Shown here: positions 35,417-39,657 of the stretch, piece by piece
How the letters are laid out: every line of letters starts with the position of its first letter
Numbering within the stretch: the first letter of the stretch is position 1
Origin: Escherichia phage HP3.2
Sequence record: OP978391.1
Strand: one strand, 5' to 3'
Length of the DNA stretch: 64,000 nucleotides
Program-made: the position numbers and the translations under genes
Notes under the pieces: model-generated
What the model saw: the letters and a program-made list of their open reading frames with translations, nothing else
Databases searched by the model: none
What the model was told of the DNA's origin: nothing

Positions 35417-35629
35417 TCATTTTTGTCCTGCATTTACTTTATGCCGATGCACGGCCTTAACTTTATCAAGGTATTTTTCAAAATTTCGCAATCTAGTATA
35501 GTCTGCCGGAGATTGGTTGAGTGATACTTCTCGACGCAAAGCTGAAATGATATTTCCAACTTCCCTACGAATTTCATCTAATTGAAGAACAGTAAGATTG
35601 CGAAGTTGCTTTTCAGTTAATTGTAGCAT
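35417..35629 (-). CDS. Hypothetical protein (70 aa), rI.1-like by position
   Basis: ORF between tk and rI. Confidence 0.5.
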
Positions 35630-35671
35630 ATATACCCCTTTAGTTAGATAAACCTATTTATAACTTTTGCA

Positions 35672-36253
35672 CTAACCGAGCTTTTTAGTTAATTCATTCC
35701 AATGTTTTCTACACAAAGAAACATAAATTTCATCACCAATACAGATTTGATTACCTTCTTTAACTGGTGTTCCATCTTCCATTAATCGAGCTGTCATAAT
35801 AGCTTTTTTACCACAATGACAAACTGCCTTTAGTTCAATAAGTTTATCTGCAATCGCCAAAAGTTCTTTAGAACCTTCAAATAATTTTCCAGCGAAATCA
35901 GTCCTTAGCCCATAAGCCATAACAGGAACATTATATGTATCAACAATTCGACTTAATTGATGCACCTGTTCAGTTTTTAAAAACTGAGCTTCATCTACAA
36001 ATACACAATGAATATCTTTTTGTGCTTCAGCCCATTTATAGAACTCAAAAATATCCATATCATCCGTAATAATATTCGCTTCCTGCTTAATTCCAATGCG
36101 AGAAACGACTTCACAGACAGAATCGCGAGTATCAATAGCAGGCTTAAGAACTAATACACCCATTCCGCGTTCTTTATAATTATGTGCAGCAGTCAAAAGA
36201 GAAGCAGATTTTCCAGCATTCATTGCTGCGTAAGTAAAAATTAAACTCGCCAT
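35672..36253 (-). CDS. tk: Thymidine kinase (193 aa)
   Basis: 193 aa; P-loop AAMNAGKS; C-terminal zinc cysteines CHCGKKA...C. Confidence 0.9.
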   Translation of the reverse strand: MASLIFTYAAMNAGKSASLLTAAHNYKERGMGVLVLKPAIDTRDSVCEVVSRIGIKQEANIITDDMDIFEFYKWAEAQKDIHCVFVDEAQFLKTEQVHQLSRIVDTYNVPVMAYGLRTDFAGKLFEGSKELLAIADKLIELKAVCHCGKKAIMTARLMEDGTPVKEGNQICIGDEIYVSLCRKHWNELTKKLG

Positions 36254-36262
36254 ATCACCTTC

Positions 36263-36448
36263 TTAAAGCATATTCACATAAGCTATTAATTCGTTTTCTT
36301 TCTTATCAAACCGATCAGCAAATTCTTCTTGCTGTTCGGGAGATAGCGGGCCGTATTCATCATAAAAGGTGTTTGCTTCTGTATGCTCATCTAGAAGTTC
36401 ATGGATAAGCTCAAACAATTTATCTTTTTGTTCTTTACTCAGACTCAT
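36263..36448 (-). CDS. Hypothetical acidic protein (61 aa)
   Basis: Small ORF upstream of tk. Confidence 0.45.
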   Translation of the reverse strand: MSLSKEQKDKLFELIHELLDEHTEANTFYDEYGPLSPEQQEEFADRFDKKENELIAYVNML

Positions 36449-36614
36449 ATATTAATTTCCAGGAGTTTTAAAATAATTCGCTTTTGCTTAAATATTTCCA
36501 TAGTTAAATGACCAGTATCTTTTTGACCGATTCCAATGGCAAAACCTTTATTGACAGCGAGTTCAATTAAATTATCAAGCTCACGTAACACTTCATACTG
36601 TAACTCAAAACTAT

Positions 36615-36827
36615 TCATTTCGGTTTACCTTCTTTAACGAAATCTGGATAAGGATAAAATCCCGAATAAAATCCTTCACCTTTATGATTGATGCATCCTT
36701 TATTAGAACAATAGCACCAATAATCGAAATCACAAGCCATTTCATCGTTGCATAAAGCAAAAACAACTGGCCATTTACACTTTTCACAATGGGCATTTTT
36801 AAGAATACTAGTTTGGCTCATAACCAT
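36615..36827 (-). CDS. Cys-rich small protein (70 aa), possible zinc-binding
   Basis: CEKCKW...CNDEMACDFDYWCYCSNKGCINH; overlaps an alternative-frame ORF 36611-36796. Confidence 0.4.
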   Translation of the reverse strand: MVMSQTSILKNAHCEKCKWPVVFALCNDEMACDFDYWCYCSNKGCINHKGEGFYSGFYPYPDFVKEGKPK

Positions 36828-37045
36828 GTAACCTTTAAGCAGTATTCTTCTACATGCTGTTTACGACCTTTCTTATCAATAAAGGTATATTCAACGAATG
36901 TTCCAATGTAGTCTTTATCTACATCATGCGGACTATTAATTGGACATTTAGTACGGCAAATGCGTTCCCATTGACGAATAATTACTGCCTTATTCTTTGG
37001 GTCATATGGATGTGGATAATGTATATTCATAATAACGGTTCCCAA
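36818..37045 (-). CDS. Hypothetical protein (75 aa)
   Basis: Small ORF. Confidence 0.45.
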   Translation of the reverse strand: MGTVIMNIHYPHPYDPKNKAVIIRQWERICRTKCPINSPHDVDKDYIGTFVEYTFIDKKGRKQHVEEYCLKVTWL

Positions 37046-37494
37046 TCAACAATCACAATTTCTAATTTAGAGGAATATGTATCTAAAATCCCCTCAATAA
37101 TATCCCAGTTCCCTTTACCTATGCCTGCACCAATCCTAGGCATATAGATTGTAGGTTTAATCAGTTTATTTTCACCAAACTCATTTAATTCTAACATACA
37201 ATTCATTAAAGCGGAATACTCAAAATTTGGCCCTGGTTGAAATTGAGTATAAAGGTTGAAGCAATACGCTTTATGAGTCCTAAAGTATTTTTCATAGACT
37301 GAGTAAGAACCGAGTTTAGTTACATCACCCCATTCAGTCTGTAATTTATCAGCTTCCAAAATTTTAGGGAAAGCTTTGGTTAATTGACCCGCTACGCCTG
37401 AACCCATAGTATGAAAACAATTGCATCCATGCGCAATATTTTTACCTTCAGCGAAAAGGGCGACAATATCGCCCTTGATATATTTTACAATCAT
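37027..37494 (-). CDS. Macro-domain-like protein (155 aa), candidate ADP-ribose binding/processing
   Basis: KGDIVALFAEGKNIAHGCNCFHTMGSGVAGQL and PRIGAGIGKGNW resemble macro-domain motifs (GDIT...VNAAN...GGGGV...; P-x-I-x-x-G); by-eye only. Confidence 0.45.
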   Translation of the reverse strand: MIVKYIKGDIVALFAEGKNIAHGCNCFHTMGSGVAGQLTKAFPKILEADKLQTEWGDVTKLGSYSVYEKYFRTHKAYCFNLYTQFQPGPNFEYSALMNCMLELNEFGENKLIKPTIYMPRIGAGIGKGNWDIIEGILDTYSSKLEIVIVDWEPLL

Positions 37495-37832
37495 CTAGTA
37501 CTCAATCCTCGATTATAAGAATCTACCAAACGGTCAACCATTGAATGACAAGCGGCTTTATCTTTCTCCTCCGCAACTGAACATTCTAAGGTATTCCACT
37601 TTTTAGCATATCGTTTTAATAATGTATCGTTTTTGTATCTGCTTGATTTATCTCTTTCTCCGTCTTTATATGCATATATTAATTTCTGCGCAAATTCAGC
37701 TTGGCATGCTTTATTTTTCCCACAATAATCCGCGGCAGTACGGTTTACATACTCTCTAATTTCAGTATATGATGTATCTGCTAACGCAGAAAATGAAATT
37801 AATCCTATACATAAAACCAAAATTTTAGTCAT
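37491..37832 (-). CDS. Secreted protein (113 aa), vs-like by position
   Basis: N-terminal signal peptide MTKILVLCIGLISFSALA; paired cysteines; weak positional call. Confidence 0.4.
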   Translation of the reverse strand: MTKILVLCIGLISFSALADTSYTEIREYVNRTAADYCGKNKACQAEFAQKLIYAYKDGERDKSSRYKNDTLLKRYAKKWNTLECSVAEEKDKAACHSMVDRLVDSYNRGLSTR

Positions 37833-38370
37833 TTACTATTTCCAAAAGTTTATTATTTTTAAGGTAATTAGCCTTTTCTAGGACTTCAGAAGCATATTTA
37901 GAACCAGCTTTAACATTCCATCCCGAATTATAAGAGGATATTGCTTTTCTTATATCGCCCTTATGTATATTTAACCAATAAGAAAGTTCAATGTACGCCC
38001 AGGAAGCTGAATTGGACCGTTTATTCAACATTCTTTTTATTTCAGCATCGGTCATATTATAACCAAGTTCCTTGACTCTCGCTCGCATAGTAGGCAAATA
38101 ATTTTGGAACATTCCATAGGCATGATGCTTTGGTTTAGATTTTAAATTAACTCCGCCAGAGCTTTCTTGCCATAAAATAGCAGCCATTATATGACCTAAT
38201 CCGCTCTTGTGGATATTTTTGTGTGTTTTATATTTTCCATCCTTAGAAAATTGTTCCCCGAATTGATACGCGTAACGCATGTTATCGAGTTGGACATTAC
38301 TGAAAGTATGCTCGGAGCTATGTGCCATCATTGAAATGGCCAATAGACCAGCGAGTAGTGCTTTTCTCAT
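37825..38370 (-). CDS. Secreted lytic-transglycosylase-like protein (181 aa)
   Basis: Signal peptide MRKALLAGLLAISMMAHS; WQESSGG resembles the catalytic E-S motif of Slt-type transglycosylases. Confidence 0.55.
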   Translation of the reverse strand: MRKALLAGLLAISMMAHSSEHTFSNVQLDNMRYAYQFGEQFSKDGKYKTHKNIHKSGLGHIMAAILWQESSGGVNLKSKPKHHAYGMFQNYLPTMRARVKELGYNMTDAEIKRMLNKRSNSASWAYIELSYWLNIHKGDIRKAISSYNSGWNVKAGSKYASEVLEKANYLKNNKLLEIVND

Positions 38371-38377
38371 GCTTACC

Positions 38378-38839
38378 TCATTGAGTTTTAATTACTGCTT
38401 TAGAAGCCTTTCCTGGTAAACGACGACTATTGATAATTGCCATCCTGCATTGAAGCGACGGGTCTTTGAACTTCGCATTAGGTTTACAAACTGTAAATCC
38501 AAGCCAAAGATTTCCATCTGTGATTTCTAAACGTCCAGGACGGTATTCAACCCCATCAATAAAATCCTCATCAATGTCAGGACGCGGAGGCATACTCAGG
38601 AATTCATTAACTTCTAAAACATGGTCTTTTATTTTGTGGAATAATTCAAAAACATATGTCTCATCAATCTCCCGTTGAATTGCACGATCAAGAAGATGCT
38701 GAGAATATTTTAGATGAAACGATGAGACCCCTGCTGCTTTTGATGCCTCACGAATCTCATTGTTAATTTGACGAAACTCCGACTCAAAGTGACGACGAAG
38801 CTTATTTCGACGGATAAAAACTTCTGTGTTGATAGTCAT
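38378..38839 (-). CDS. regB: RegB endoribonuclease (153 aa)
   Basis: 153 aa; sequence MTINTEVFIRRNKLRRHFESEFRQINNEIREASKAAGV... agrees with T4 RegB. Confidence 0.85.
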   Translation of the reverse strand: MTINTEVFIRRNKLRRHFESEFRQINNEIREASKAAGVSSFHLKYSQHLLDRAIQREIDETYVFELFHKIKDHVLEVNEFLSMPPRPDIDEDFIDGVEYRPGRLEITDGNLWLGFTVCKPNAKFKDPSLQCRMAIINSRRLPGKASKAVIKTQ

Positions 38840-38844
38840 GTTAT

Positions 38845-38898
38845 TCTCCTCTTAACTGATAGAAAAATTATACCACAGTCAAGAGGAAAAGTAAACAG
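38845..38898 (-). promoter_or_regulatory. T4-type early promoter for regB
   Basis: Minus strand GTTTAC-17 nt-GTATAAT, canonical spacing, upstream of regB ATG. Confidence 0.7.
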
Positions 38899-39177
38899 TT
38901 ATTCTTTAAATCTAATCAATTTATTCATAGACTTTGAAACTTCGGCACGAACCTCATGTAGATTTTTGAGCTGTTCAAGACGCTGCGTATAGTAAGCAAT
39001 TTCATCTTCTTCGAGACAGTCCTGTGAATCTTCTTTAAGATACCGTGCATAGTCCTGGAAAGCGTTACGGACTACTTCCTGGAAGTCATCAAGACTTTGA
39101 ATTTTCTTAGGAGCAGCAGACACACGACGAGGGGCAGTATAATACTCATAACCAAACCCTGCGCTTAATTGAGCCAT
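38899..39177 (-). CDS. Hypothetical protein (ca. 92 aa)
   Basis: Start taken at [13 protein letters not shown]. Confidence 0.5.
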
Positions 39178-39443
39178 TAGTATTTTTCCTCTGGTTGGAA
39201 CACAGCACGACAAGCCCACATACTGGCTTCTTTGAGTTTCGTTTTAGCAATAGCTAACTGATCGAGGCTTTCAGCATAATTCTTCGCGAGTTCAAAGTCT
39301 TCGCAATTATCTAGTGCTTCCCAGAATTCATCATATAAAGCATCAAAGATAAGTCCTAAACGAACTTCAGCGTCTTTAATAGCATTTACTTTACCGATTT
39401 TTTCGTCGGTATGTGGCTTATAACCTTTAATATCTTCAATCAT
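39177..39443 (-). CDS. Hypothetical protein (ca. 88 aa), at the vs.4 position
   Basis: Start taken at [11 protein letters not shown]; helical, acidic; positional only. Confidence 0.45.
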
Positions 39444-39657
39444 ATTTGACTTCCTCACCAGTACATAAATCGTATTCAACTAAACGAATAGGTTCATGAA
39501 TGCCATATCCCTGAACAGAAATTTCTGTCGTAGGATAAATTCCACTAATATCACCCATATTCCACGCTTCATTAAATTGCTGTTCGCCTGAATTACTAAA
39601 CCATTCTGCGAAAGCATTTAACACATCTTTAGAACCTTCAATAATTATCTTTGCCAT
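39436..39657 (-). CDS. Hypothetical protein (73 aa)
   Basis: Small ORF. Confidence 0.45.
   Translation of the reverse strand: MAKIIIEGSKDVLNAFAEWFSNSGEQQFNEAWNMGDISGIYPTTEISVQGYGIHEPIRLVEYDLCTGEEVKYD

What the first reader, a model, noticed from the sequence alone, without database searches (positions are those of the whole stretch)
37027..37494. Macro-domain-like protein in the tk-vs interval
The 155-aa product has KGDIVALFAEGKNIAHGCNCFHTMGSGVAGQL near the N-terminus and PRIGAGIGKGNW near the C-terminus, resembling the two signature regions of macro domains (ADP-ribose or O-acetyl-ADP-ribose binding/hydrolysis). T-even phages encode ADP-ribosyltransferases (Alt, ModA, ModB), and several host defences use ADP-ribose-derived signals or ADP-ribosylation (Thoeris, DarTG). 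A phage macro domain could reverse or consume such marks. The call is by eye and needs confirmation.
Basis: inference. Interest (0 to 1): 0.5.

Follow-up and report, generated by a model that had tools for sequence, protein, structure and literature searches.

The report
Phage T4 Tk.4 (AdfM) macrodomain gene
The ORF is a real macrodomain gene, identical in protein sequence to phage T4 Tk.4, which has long been annotated as such and was recently shown genetically to protect T4 from the DarTG2 DNA-ADP-ribosylating defence, so the call is correct but already known.

Summary
The 155-aa ORF exists at 37027..37494, on the minus strand, and contains both quoted motifs. The window is Escherichia phage HP3, a T4-like phage. 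The protein is 155/155 identical to T4 Tk.4, whose RefSeq note already reads "contains A1pp phosphatase motif".

The macrodomain call holds:
- Pfam Macro scores 27.7 bits, above the gathering cut-off of 22.
- The AlphaFold2 model has pLDDT 96.1.

Function is also known. A 2025 preprint (HIDEN-SEQ) found tk.4 as the only T4 gene needed against DarTG2. A clean knockout sensitised T4, and the gene was renamed adfM.

What I add is that Tk.4 is not a DarG-type macrodomain. It has an invariant Gln84 where DarG has Lys80 and TARG1 has Lys84. It shares this Gln, plus His22 and Asn25, with Streptomyces SCO6735, a stand-alone macrodomain shown to remove ADP-ribose from thymidine in DNA through an essential Gln85. 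Bacterial relatives are stand-alone genes in housekeeping neighbourhoods, with no DarT nearby.

The most likely mechanism is lysine-independent removal of DarT2's thymidine-ADP-ribose marks from phage DNA. That step is inferred, not shown.

Verdict: already known, low interest.

The parts
37027..37494 (-). tk.4 / adfM coding sequence: a 155-aa single-domain macrodomain protein
37387..37437 (-). Residues 20-36, IAHGCNCFHTMGSGVAG: the first pocket loop. It carries His22, invariant Asn25 and the Gly31-x-Gly33 turn.
   Evidence: Conservation in alignment A1. Asn25 aligns with DarG N22, PhiKZ gp104 N23 and SCO6735 N27; His22 aligns with SCO6735 H24. The N23A mutation reduces PhiKZ gp104 activity. 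H24 and N27 were among the residues mutated in SCO6735.
37243..37257 (-). Residues 80-84, NLYTQ: an invariant motif. Gln84 occupies the position of the catalytic Lys of TARG1 (K84) and DarG (K80), and of the essential Gln85 of SCO6735.
   Evidence: N80, Y82, T83 and Q84 are invariant in 53 homologues. The HMM alignment to TARG1 pairs NlYTQ with YLITK. MAFFT alignments A2 and A3 place Q84 in one column with SCO6735/BT1257 Q, TARG1 K, DarG K and PhiKZ K78. SCO6735 Q85A and Q85E are inactive.
37105..37140 (-). Residues 119-130, PRIGAGIGKGNW: the second, diphosphate-binding pocket loop
   Evidence: P119, I121, G122 and G124 are invariant; G128 and W130 are at least 90% conserved. The loop aligns with MPRIGCGL of TARG1, BT1257 and SCO6735 and with PPLGxGNGG of DarG. 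The position of TARG1 D125 is Gly126 here.
37491..37494 (-). ATGA overlap: the stop codon of vs (TGA, 37493-37491) overlaps the start codon of tk.4 (ATG, 37494-37492), which suggests translational coupling
   Evidence: Read directly from the sequence.
37027..37030 (-). ATGA overlap: the stop codon of tk.4 (TGA, 37029-37027) overlaps the start codon of tk.3 (ATG, 37030-37028)
   Evidence: Read directly from the sequence. The annotated tk.3 start is in NC_041919.
38867..38895 (-). Sigma-70-like promoter match (TTTACT-17-TATAAT, with TG) upstream of regB. It is a candidate start of the regB-vs.1-vs-tk.4 transcript. Tentative.
   Evidence: Consensus scan. The number of promoter-like sites in the region is not above the shuffled expectation, so this is only a candidate. 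No minus-strand terminator-like site was found anywhere in the scanned 35500-39500 region, which includes the stretch from regB to tk.4.

Best explanation
The gene is the HP3 copy of T4 tk.4 (adfM), an early-region gene that encodes a 155-aa stand-alone macrodomain of the ALC1-like (TARG1/DarG/Poa1p/SCO6735) class. It acts as a counter-defence against the host DarTG2 toxin-antitoxin system.

During infection DarT2 uses NAD+ to ADP-ribosylate thymidines in single-stranded phage DNA, which blocks replication. Tk.4 most likely binds the ADP-ribose moiety in its conserved pocket (the Asn25 / Gly31-x-Gly33 loop and the Pro119-Gly124 loop) and hydrolyses the thymine-ribose bond, restoring normal DNA.

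The chemistry is probably not DarG-like. The catalytic Lys of DarG and TARG1 is replaced by an invariant Gln84, as in SCO6735. There, Gln85 is essential and is proposed to position the substrate for a water-initiated, lysine-independent cleavage.

Shown: the macro fold, the class, identity to T4 Tk.4, and the genetic requirement of T4 tk.4 against DarTG2. Inferred: hydrolase activity on thymidine-ADP-ribose DNA, the role of Gln84, and transfer of the T4 phenotype to HP3.
For: Identity and family:
- 155/155 identity to T4 Tk.4, in the same position between vs and tk.3.
- Pfam Macro above the gathering score.
- High-confidence AF2 model.
- NCBIfam's only hit is the DarG antitoxin model, E 2.5e-7, over the macro part.

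Genetics (preprint 10.1101/2025.11.20.689424):
- tk.4 was the single significant T4 transposon hit on a DarTG2 host.
- A clean deletion sensitised T4.

Mechanistic precedent:
- SCO6735 has Gln at the Lys position. It removes DarT-made thymidine-ADPr from DNA faster than DarG or TARG1, rescues E. coli from DarT, and is inactivated by Q85A or Q85E.
- Tk.4 shares His22, Asn25 and Gln84 with SCO6735 H24, N27 and Q85. Asn25 and Gln84 are invariant and His22 is at least 90% conserved in 53 homologues.
- A different phage macrodomain, PhiKZ gp104, was shown in vitro to remove ADPr from a DarT2-modified oligonucleotide.

Consistency check:
- T5, which is DarTG2-sensitive, encodes no Tk.4-like protein. 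tblastn found nothing, and the best profile hit was 9.2 bits.
Against: - No biochemical assay of Tk.4 itself was found in the searchable literature. The T4 evidence is a preprint, and it is genetic only.
- Tk.4 lacks the DarG/TARG1 catalytic Lys.
- Tk.4 also lacks two SCO6735 features linked to high DNA activity: the five-residue-longer 'mobile loop', and Lys34 and Lys89.
- It scores far below the DarG family cut-off (30.3 against 250 bits).
- Bacterial relatives are not linked to DarT, so this family's ancestral substrate may be something else.
- HP3 itself has not been tested.
Confidence: 0.75

Rival explanations
1. Tk.4 neutralises DarT2 mainly by binding and inhibiting the toxin (interaction-inhibition), not by erasing the DNA mark.
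For: Catalytically dead SCO6735 (Q85A), DarG (K80A) and TARG1 (K84A) all inhibit DarT in vitro, and SCO6735 does so most strongly. The T4 genetics do not distinguish this mode from hydrolysis.
Against: The pocket and putative catalytic residues (N25, Q84 and the Gly loops invariant; H22 at least 90% conserved) are conserved across very distant phage and bacterial homologues that cannot all face the same DarT. This pattern fits an enzyme rather than a toxin-specific binder. Tk.4 also lacks DarG's C-terminal DarT-binding domain, being 155 aa in total.
Confidence: 0.1
2. Tk.4 is an ADP-ribose-1''-phosphate phosphatase (Poa1p-like, as in the 'phosphatase' / 'A1pp' annotation) or an O-acetyl-ADP-ribose deacetylase that processes small-molecule NAD metabolites. 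On this view the DarTG2 phenotype is secondary.
Against: These labels are transferred by homology and were not tested. Poa1p has Ser, not Gln, at position 84. The only phenotype known for tk.4 is specific to DarTG2. The nearest characterised Gln-type enzyme acts on thymidine-ADPr DNA.
Confidence: 0.07
3. Tk.4 tunes the phage's own ADP-ribosylation (Alt, ModA, ModB; protein or RNA-linked marks) or removes marks made by other host ADP-ribosyltransferases or Thoeris-type signals, as the first reader also suggested.
For: SCO6735 and TARG1 also hydrolyse Glu/Asp-linked protein ADPr and uracil-ADPr on RNA, so a broader substrate range is plausible for this class.
Against: This rests partly on my own knowledge: Alt, ModA and ModB are arginine-specific, and ALC1-like macrodomains are not known to cleave Arg-ADPr. 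No screen or paper I found links tk.4 to these systems. tk.4 is dispensable on plain E. coli K-12 and was a hit only with DarTG2 among the systems tested.
Confidence: 0.08

Closest known systems
Phage T4 Tk.4 = AdfM (anti-DarT factor Macrodomain; HIDEN-SEQ preprint 10.1101/2025.11.20.689424)
   Same: Identical protein (155/155) in the same position between vs and tk.3, with the same ATGA-coupled arrangement.
   Different: Nothing at the protein level. There are six synonymous DNA differences. The small ORFs further downstream (the T4 tk.1/tk.2 region) differ in HP3.
Streptomyces coelicolor SCO6735 (PDB 5E3B) and Bacteroides BT1257 (PDB 2FG1/2AFC): Gln-type stand-alone ALC1-like macrodomains
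   Different: Only 22-28% identity. Tk.4 lacks the longer 'mobile loop' that defines the SCO6735/BT1257 subclass, and lacks Lys34 and Lys89. It has H-G-C-N-C rather than H-V/I-C-N-D.
DarG antitoxin macrodomain (T. aquaticus 5M31/5M3E, M. tuberculosis 5M3I, T. africanus 7OMU)
   Different: DarG has FPTK(K/R)HW with catalytic Lys80, where Tk.4 has NLYTQ. Tk.4 has no C-terminal DarT-binding domain and no adjacent darT. It scores 30.3 bits against a 250-bit family cut-off.
PhiKZ gp104, also named AdfM (Cell Rep 2026, PMC13309987)
   Same: A phage-encoded single macrodomain that counters DarTG2. Removal of ADPr from a TNTC oligonucleotide was shown in vitro.
   Different: It is a true DarG2-like protein: E 9.4e-25 to Mtb DarG, with an FPTK motif and K78. 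It is about 17% identical to Tk.4 (hhalign probability 96.5%). It is imported into the phage nucleus. The two 'AdfM' proteins belong to different subfamilies, so the shared name is a collision.
Human TARG1/OARD1 (4J5R) and yeast Poa1p (6LFQ)
   Different: TARG1 uses a Lys84/Asp125 dyad, which corresponds to Gln84 and Gly126 in Tk.4. Poa1p has Ser at the Gln position and a large insertion, and its assigned activity is Appr-1''-p phosphatase.

Membership tests
Macro domain (Pfam PF01661) | Profile score above Pfam's gathering threshold | tested here: met
   27.7 bits against a cut-off of 22, E 2.9e-6, covering residues 22-132 and profile positions 2-113 of 118.
Macro domain (Pfam PF01661) | Three-layer alpha/beta/alpha macro fold | tested here: met
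Macro domain (Pfam PF01661) | Conserved ADP-ribose pocket loops, and ADP-ribose binding | tested here: inconclusive
   The loop residues are conserved: N25, G33, P119, I121, G122 and G124 are invariant, and G31 is at least 90% conserved. They align with the pocket loops of ligand-bound relatives. Binding itself cannot be tested with these tools.
ALC1-like (TARG1/DarG/Poa1p/SCO6735) macrodomain class | Closer in structure and sequence to class members than to MacroD, viral, PARG or macroH2A types | tested here: met
DarG antitoxin (NCBIfam NF048014) | Whole-protein score above the family cut-off, with two-domain architecture including the DarT-binding C-terminal domain | tested here: not met
   30.3 bits against a cut-off of 250. 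Only profile positions 2-146 of 338 are matched, and the protein is 155 aa.
DarG antitoxin (NCBIfam NF048014) | Catalytic lysine (Taq DarG K80) in the FPTK motif | tested here: not met
   Gln84 occupies that column and is invariant in 53 homologues.
DarG antitoxin (NCBIfam NF048014) | Encoded next to a darT toxin gene | tested here: not met
   The neighbours in the phage are vs and tk.3. None of the 80 bacterial loci holding a Tk.4-like gene gave a DarT2 match by tblastn, and no recurrent neighbour family was found. The search used a single DarT2 query, so its sensitivity is limited.
SCO6735/BT1257 subclass (Gln-type thymidine-ADPr hydrolases) | Gln at the position of the TARG1/DarG catalytic Lys, plus the His and Asn of the first loop | tested here: met
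   Q84, H22 and N25 align with SCO6735 Q85, H24 and N27. The mutational data are in PMC9411070.
SCO6735/BT1257 subclass (Gln-type thymidine-ADPr hydrolases) | 'Mobile loop' five residues longer than in DarG/TARG1, described as characteristic of the subclass | tested here: not met
   SCO6735 and BT1257 carry an insertion after the Gln (HGMKTGSKG / HGIYKDSKGLP) that Tk.4 and its homologues lack.
SCO6735/BT1257 subclass (Gln-type thymidine-ADPr hydrolases) | Hydrolysis of thymidine-linked ADP-ribose on ssDNA | not testable with these tools
   An enzyme assay is needed. Only genetic evidence exists, from T4.
T4 Tk.4 / AdfM orthologue group | High identity to T4 Tk.4 and a conserved position between vs and tk.3 | tested here: met
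   100% protein identity and the same gene order.
T4 Tk.4 / AdfM orthologue group | Required for plating on a DarTG2-expressing host | not testable with these tools
   Shown for T4 in a preprint. Not tested for HP3.

The most novel reading that the evidence does not exclude
Tk.4/AdfM is not an 'orphan DarG' captured from a DarTG operon. It is a separate, lysine-less (Gln84) branch of the ALC1-like macrodomains, recruited from widespread stand-alone bacterial housekeeping macrodomains. On this reading it removes thymidine-ADP-ribose by the SCO6735-type, water-initiated mechanism without that enzyme's long mobile loop. It may then have the wider substrate range of SCO6735 and TARG1 (uracil-ADPr on RNA, Glu/Asp-ADPr on protein) and protect the phage against more than DarT2.
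Probability: 0.45. Interest if true: 0.3.

Novelty: already known. Interest (0 to 1): 0.12.

Why it matters
The finding itself adds nothing new. The gene is T4 tk.4, annotated with an A1pp/macro motif in the reference genome, and assigned in 2025 as the anti-DarTG2 factor AdfM.

The second look adds three modest points:
- Two unrelated-subfamily phage proteins now share the name AdfM.
- The T4-type protein lacks the DarG/TARG1 catalytic lysine and instead resembles the Gln-type enzyme SCO6735. The published inference 'works like DarG' therefore needs a specific biochemical test, with Q84 and N25 mutants.
- About 5% of sequenced phage genomes (2750 of 50,697 records) carry a homologue. These include Tevenvirinae, KVP40, FelixO1-like and PAK_P1-like phages. 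Thymidine-ADP-ribosylation may therefore be a common pressure on large lytic phages.

Tried and rejected
1. DarG membership: rejected. The score is below cut-off, the Lys80 equivalent is absent, there is no C-terminal domain, and there is no darT neighbour.

2. 'Missing catalytic lysine means an inactive or binding-only macrodomain': considered after and dropped. SCO6735 has the same Gln and is a very active thymidine-ADPr hydrolase.

3. hhalign of the family profile against PhiKZ gp104 placed the motif one residue out of register, at low confidence. I did not rely on it. Two MAFFT alignments and the HMM alignment to TARG1 agree that Q84 matches the Lys.

4. Measuring active-site geometry in the AF2 model was not possible, because model coordinates are not exposed to the script environment.

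5. I looked for a conserved functional partner next to bacterial homologues in 80 loci. Neighbours differ by lineage and are housekeeping genes: semialdehyde dehydrogenase (ArgC-like), SecA, class I tRNA synthetase, signal peptidase II, a PLP enzyme, an ABC ATPase, an M23 peptidase and an EEP nuclease. Context therefore gives no clue to function.

6. The plus-strand terminator-like hairpin at 37456-37476, antisense inside the gene, is not above chance: 3 found against 2.4 expected.

7. T5 as a negative control: the DarTG2-sensitive phage lacks a homologue. This is consistent with the model but is a single case.

8. Literature searches for a biochemical study of Tk.4 found none.

Full report
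**Observation.** The ORF listing gives an ATG-started ORF of 155 aa at 37027..37494 on the minus strand. I checked the codons for NLYTQ (37243-37257) and PRIGAGIGKGNW (37105-37140) by hand against the raw sequence. The ORF sits in a tightly packed minus-strand gene run: regB 38378-38839, vs.1 37825-38370, vs 37491-37832, this ORF, tk.3 36818-37030, three small ORFs, then tk 35672-36253. The vs stop codon overlaps its start codon, and its stop codon overlaps the tk.3 start codon, both as ATGA. The strand, which the finding did not state, is minus.

**Source.** A 3-kb stretch around the gene is 100% identical to Escherichia phage HP3 (NC_041919) and 95-99% identical to hundreds of T4-like phages. 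In HP3 the gene is annotated 'phosphatase'. In other records it appears as 'macro domain protein', 'Poa1p-like family protein' or 'hypothetical protein'. The protein is 155/155 identical to T4 Tk.4 (NP_049723). The T4 RefSeq entry reads 'phosphatase; Tk.4; contains A1pp phosphatase motif'. The DNA differs from T4 at 6 of 468 positions, all synonymous.

**Is it a macrodomain?** Yes.
- Pfam Macro (PF01661) scores 27.7 bits against a gathering cut-off of 22.
- PHROG 335 matches at E 1.3e-65.
- NCBIfam's only hit is the DarG antitoxin model, matched over its macro part and far below cut-off.
- phmmer against PDB sequences finds BT1257, Poa1p, SCO6735, DarG and TARG1.
- A 53-sequence family profile raises these matches to E 1.8e-17 to 1e-10.
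- AlphaFold2 on that alignment gives pLDDT 96.1.

**What is already known about function.** A bioRxiv preprint of November 2025 (HIDEN-SEQ, 10.1101/2025.11.20.689424) screened a T4 transposon library on E. coli expressing DarTG2. tk.4 was the single significant hit. A clean deletion sensitised T4 to DarTG2, and the authors renamed the gene adfM (anti-DarT factor Macrodomain). They inferred, without assaying, that it removes ADP-ribose from DNA. Earlier work had noted that T4 lacking adfA and adfN (gene 30.3) stays resistant to DarTG2, which predicted a further factor. A 2026 Cell Reports paper gives the same name, AdfM, to PhiKZ gp104. That protein removes ADP-ribose from a DarT2-modified TNTC oligonucleotide in vitro. 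I found no biochemical study of Tk.4 itself.

**What the second look adds: the active site.**
- In the family alignment, G23, N25, C26, G33, A35, D49, N80, Y82, T83, Q84, P119, I121, G122 and G124 are invariant.
- The HMM alignment to TARG1 pairs NlYTQ with YLITK.
- Two MAFFT alignments that include TARG1, Taq and Mtb DarG, PhiKZ gp104, BT1257, SCO6735 and Poa1p put Tk.4 Q84 in one column with TARG1 K84, DarG K80, PhiKZ K78 and the Gln of BT1257 and SCO6735. The DarG and SCO6735 sequences were taken from the PDB alignments.
- Tk.4 thus lacks the catalytic lysine of DarG and TARG1. TARG1 D125 corresponds to Gly126 in Tk.4.
- This is not evidence of inactivity. SCO6735 has Gln85 at this site and removes thymidine-ADPr from DarT-modified DNA faster than DarG or TARG1. 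It rescues E. coli from DarT and is inactivated by Q85A or Q85E. A water-initiated, lysine-independent mechanism has been proposed for it (PMC9411070).
- Tk.4 also shares SCO6735 H24 and N27, as H22 and N25. N25 corresponds to PhiKZ N23, whose mutation lowers activity.
- Tk.4 differs from SCO6735 and BT1257 in lacking their longer 'mobile loop' and Lys34 and Lys89. Its H-G-C-N-C motif is closer to that of Poa1p.
- It is best described as its own branch of the class, with a SCO6735-type catalytic centre.
- PhiKZ gp104 is a genuine DarG2-like protein: E 9.4e-25 to Mtb DarG, with an FPTK motif, and only about 17% identical to Tk.4. The two 'AdfM' proteins therefore belong to different subfamilies.

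**Distribution and context.**
- tblastn finds a homologue in 2750 of 50,697 phage records. These include Tevenvirinae, KVP40, FelixO1-like and PAK_P1-like Pseudomonas phages, and Acinetobacter, Aeromonas and Vibrio phages.
- A scan of one genome per bacterial species found at least 520 chromosomal relatives.
- In the 80 loci fetched, 61 of 74 recovered ORFs carry N-x-Y-[T/S]-Q, and most are 140-160 aa stand-alone proteins.
- tblastn with a P. aeruginosa DarT2 query found no DarT in any of these loci.
- Neighbours differ by lineage and are housekeeping genes: ArgC-like dehydrogenase, SecA, class I tRNA synthetase, signal peptidase II and others.
- The family is therefore not a DarT-linked antitoxin in bacteria. 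This argues that the phage gene was recruited from stand-alone macrodomains rather than from a DarTG operon. That is an inference.
- As a small consistency check, phage T5, which is DarTG2-sensitive, encodes no Tk.4-like protein.

**Expression.** A sigma-70-like match (TTTACT-17-TATAAT, with TG) lies upstream of regB at 38895-38867 on the minus strand. No minus-strand terminator-like site was found anywhere in the scanned 35500-39500 region, so none lies between that promoter and tk.4. The counts of such sites are not above chance, so this is only a candidate. The ATGA overlaps suggest translational coupling within a regB-vs.1-vs-tk.4-tk.3 unit.

**Mechanism, with confidence.** The best explanation (0.75) is that the protein is a counter-defence enzyme that erases DarT2-made thymidine-ADP-ribose from replicating phage DNA by a Gln84-dependent, lysine-independent hydrolysis. 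Fold, class, identity to T4 Tk.4 and the T4 genetics are shown. The enzymatic step and its transfer to HP3 are inferred. There are three rivals:
- Toxin inhibition by binding (0.10). There is precedent in the interaction-inhibition seen with dead SCO6735, DarG and TARG1.
- Small-molecule Appr-1''-p phosphatase or OAADPr deacetylase activity, as the old annotation implies (0.07).
- Action on other ADP-ribosyl marks, including the phage's own (0.08). Class members also act on Glu/Asp-ADPr and uracil-ADPr RNA.

**Verdict.** However, the gene is a long-annotated T4 gene with a recently assigned function. Novelty: already known. Interest: low (0.12). The only new angles are mechanistic (Gln-type rather than DarG-type) and the collision over the name AdfM.

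Noticed in passing
window 36263-36827 (minus strand): Between tk and tk.3, HP3 carries three small ORFs (61, 57 and 70 aa) where T4 has tk.1 and tk.2. Only the first resembles a T4 gene (54% to Tk.2). The third (36615-36827) is Cys-rich. All three match PHROGs of unknown function (653, 3452, 2306). This is a mosaic patch directly downstream of the conserved tk.4-tk.3 pair.
   Followed up: partly
window 37491-37832 (minus strand), gene vs: The upstream neighbour vs ('valyl-tRNA synthetase modifier') is translationally coupled to tk.4. It was the most strongly depleted T4 gene in minimal M9-glucose medium compared with LB in the same HIDEN-SEQ preprint. The HP3 copy is 97% identical to T4 Vs and two residues shorter.
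   Followed up: no
literature: The name AdfM is used for two different phage macrodomains: T4 Tk.4 (Gln-type, Poa1p/SCO6735-like) and PhiKZ gp104 (Lys-type, true DarG2-like). They are about 17% identical.
   Followed up: yes
L001 (NC_041919 record header): The HP3 RefSeq taxonomy line reads 'Caudoviricetes; Rosemountvirus'. The sequence, however, is a T4-like Tequatrovirus: 98-100% protein identity to T4 for six of the seven T4 orthologues between rI.1 and regB, and 97% for Vs. The line looks like a taxonomy error in the held record.
   Followed up: no
L001 45-633 and L002 1353-1535 (mobD.x genes upstream of rI in HP3 and T4): Small mobD.3-mobD.5 ORFs are annotated 'molybdopterin-guanine dinucleotide biosynthesis protein MobD'. 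This is almost certainly a gene-name confusion, since T4 mobD is a homing endonuclease locus, and not a real function.
   Followed up: no
window 37456-37476 (plus strand): A terminator-like hairpin (AAGGGCGACAATATCGCCCTT followed by a T-rich tail) lies antisense inside the 5' end of tk.4. The number of such sites in the region is not above the shuffled expectation.
   Followed up: partly
L084 6447-8094 (phage T5 genes T5.102 and T5.105): T5 carries a Sir2-family gene, plus a nearby 168-aa ORF (T5.105) that is also labelled Sir2. The T5.105 sequence does not match the Tk.4 macro profile. This NAD-related pair in a DarTG2-sensitive phage was not examined further.
   Followed up: no
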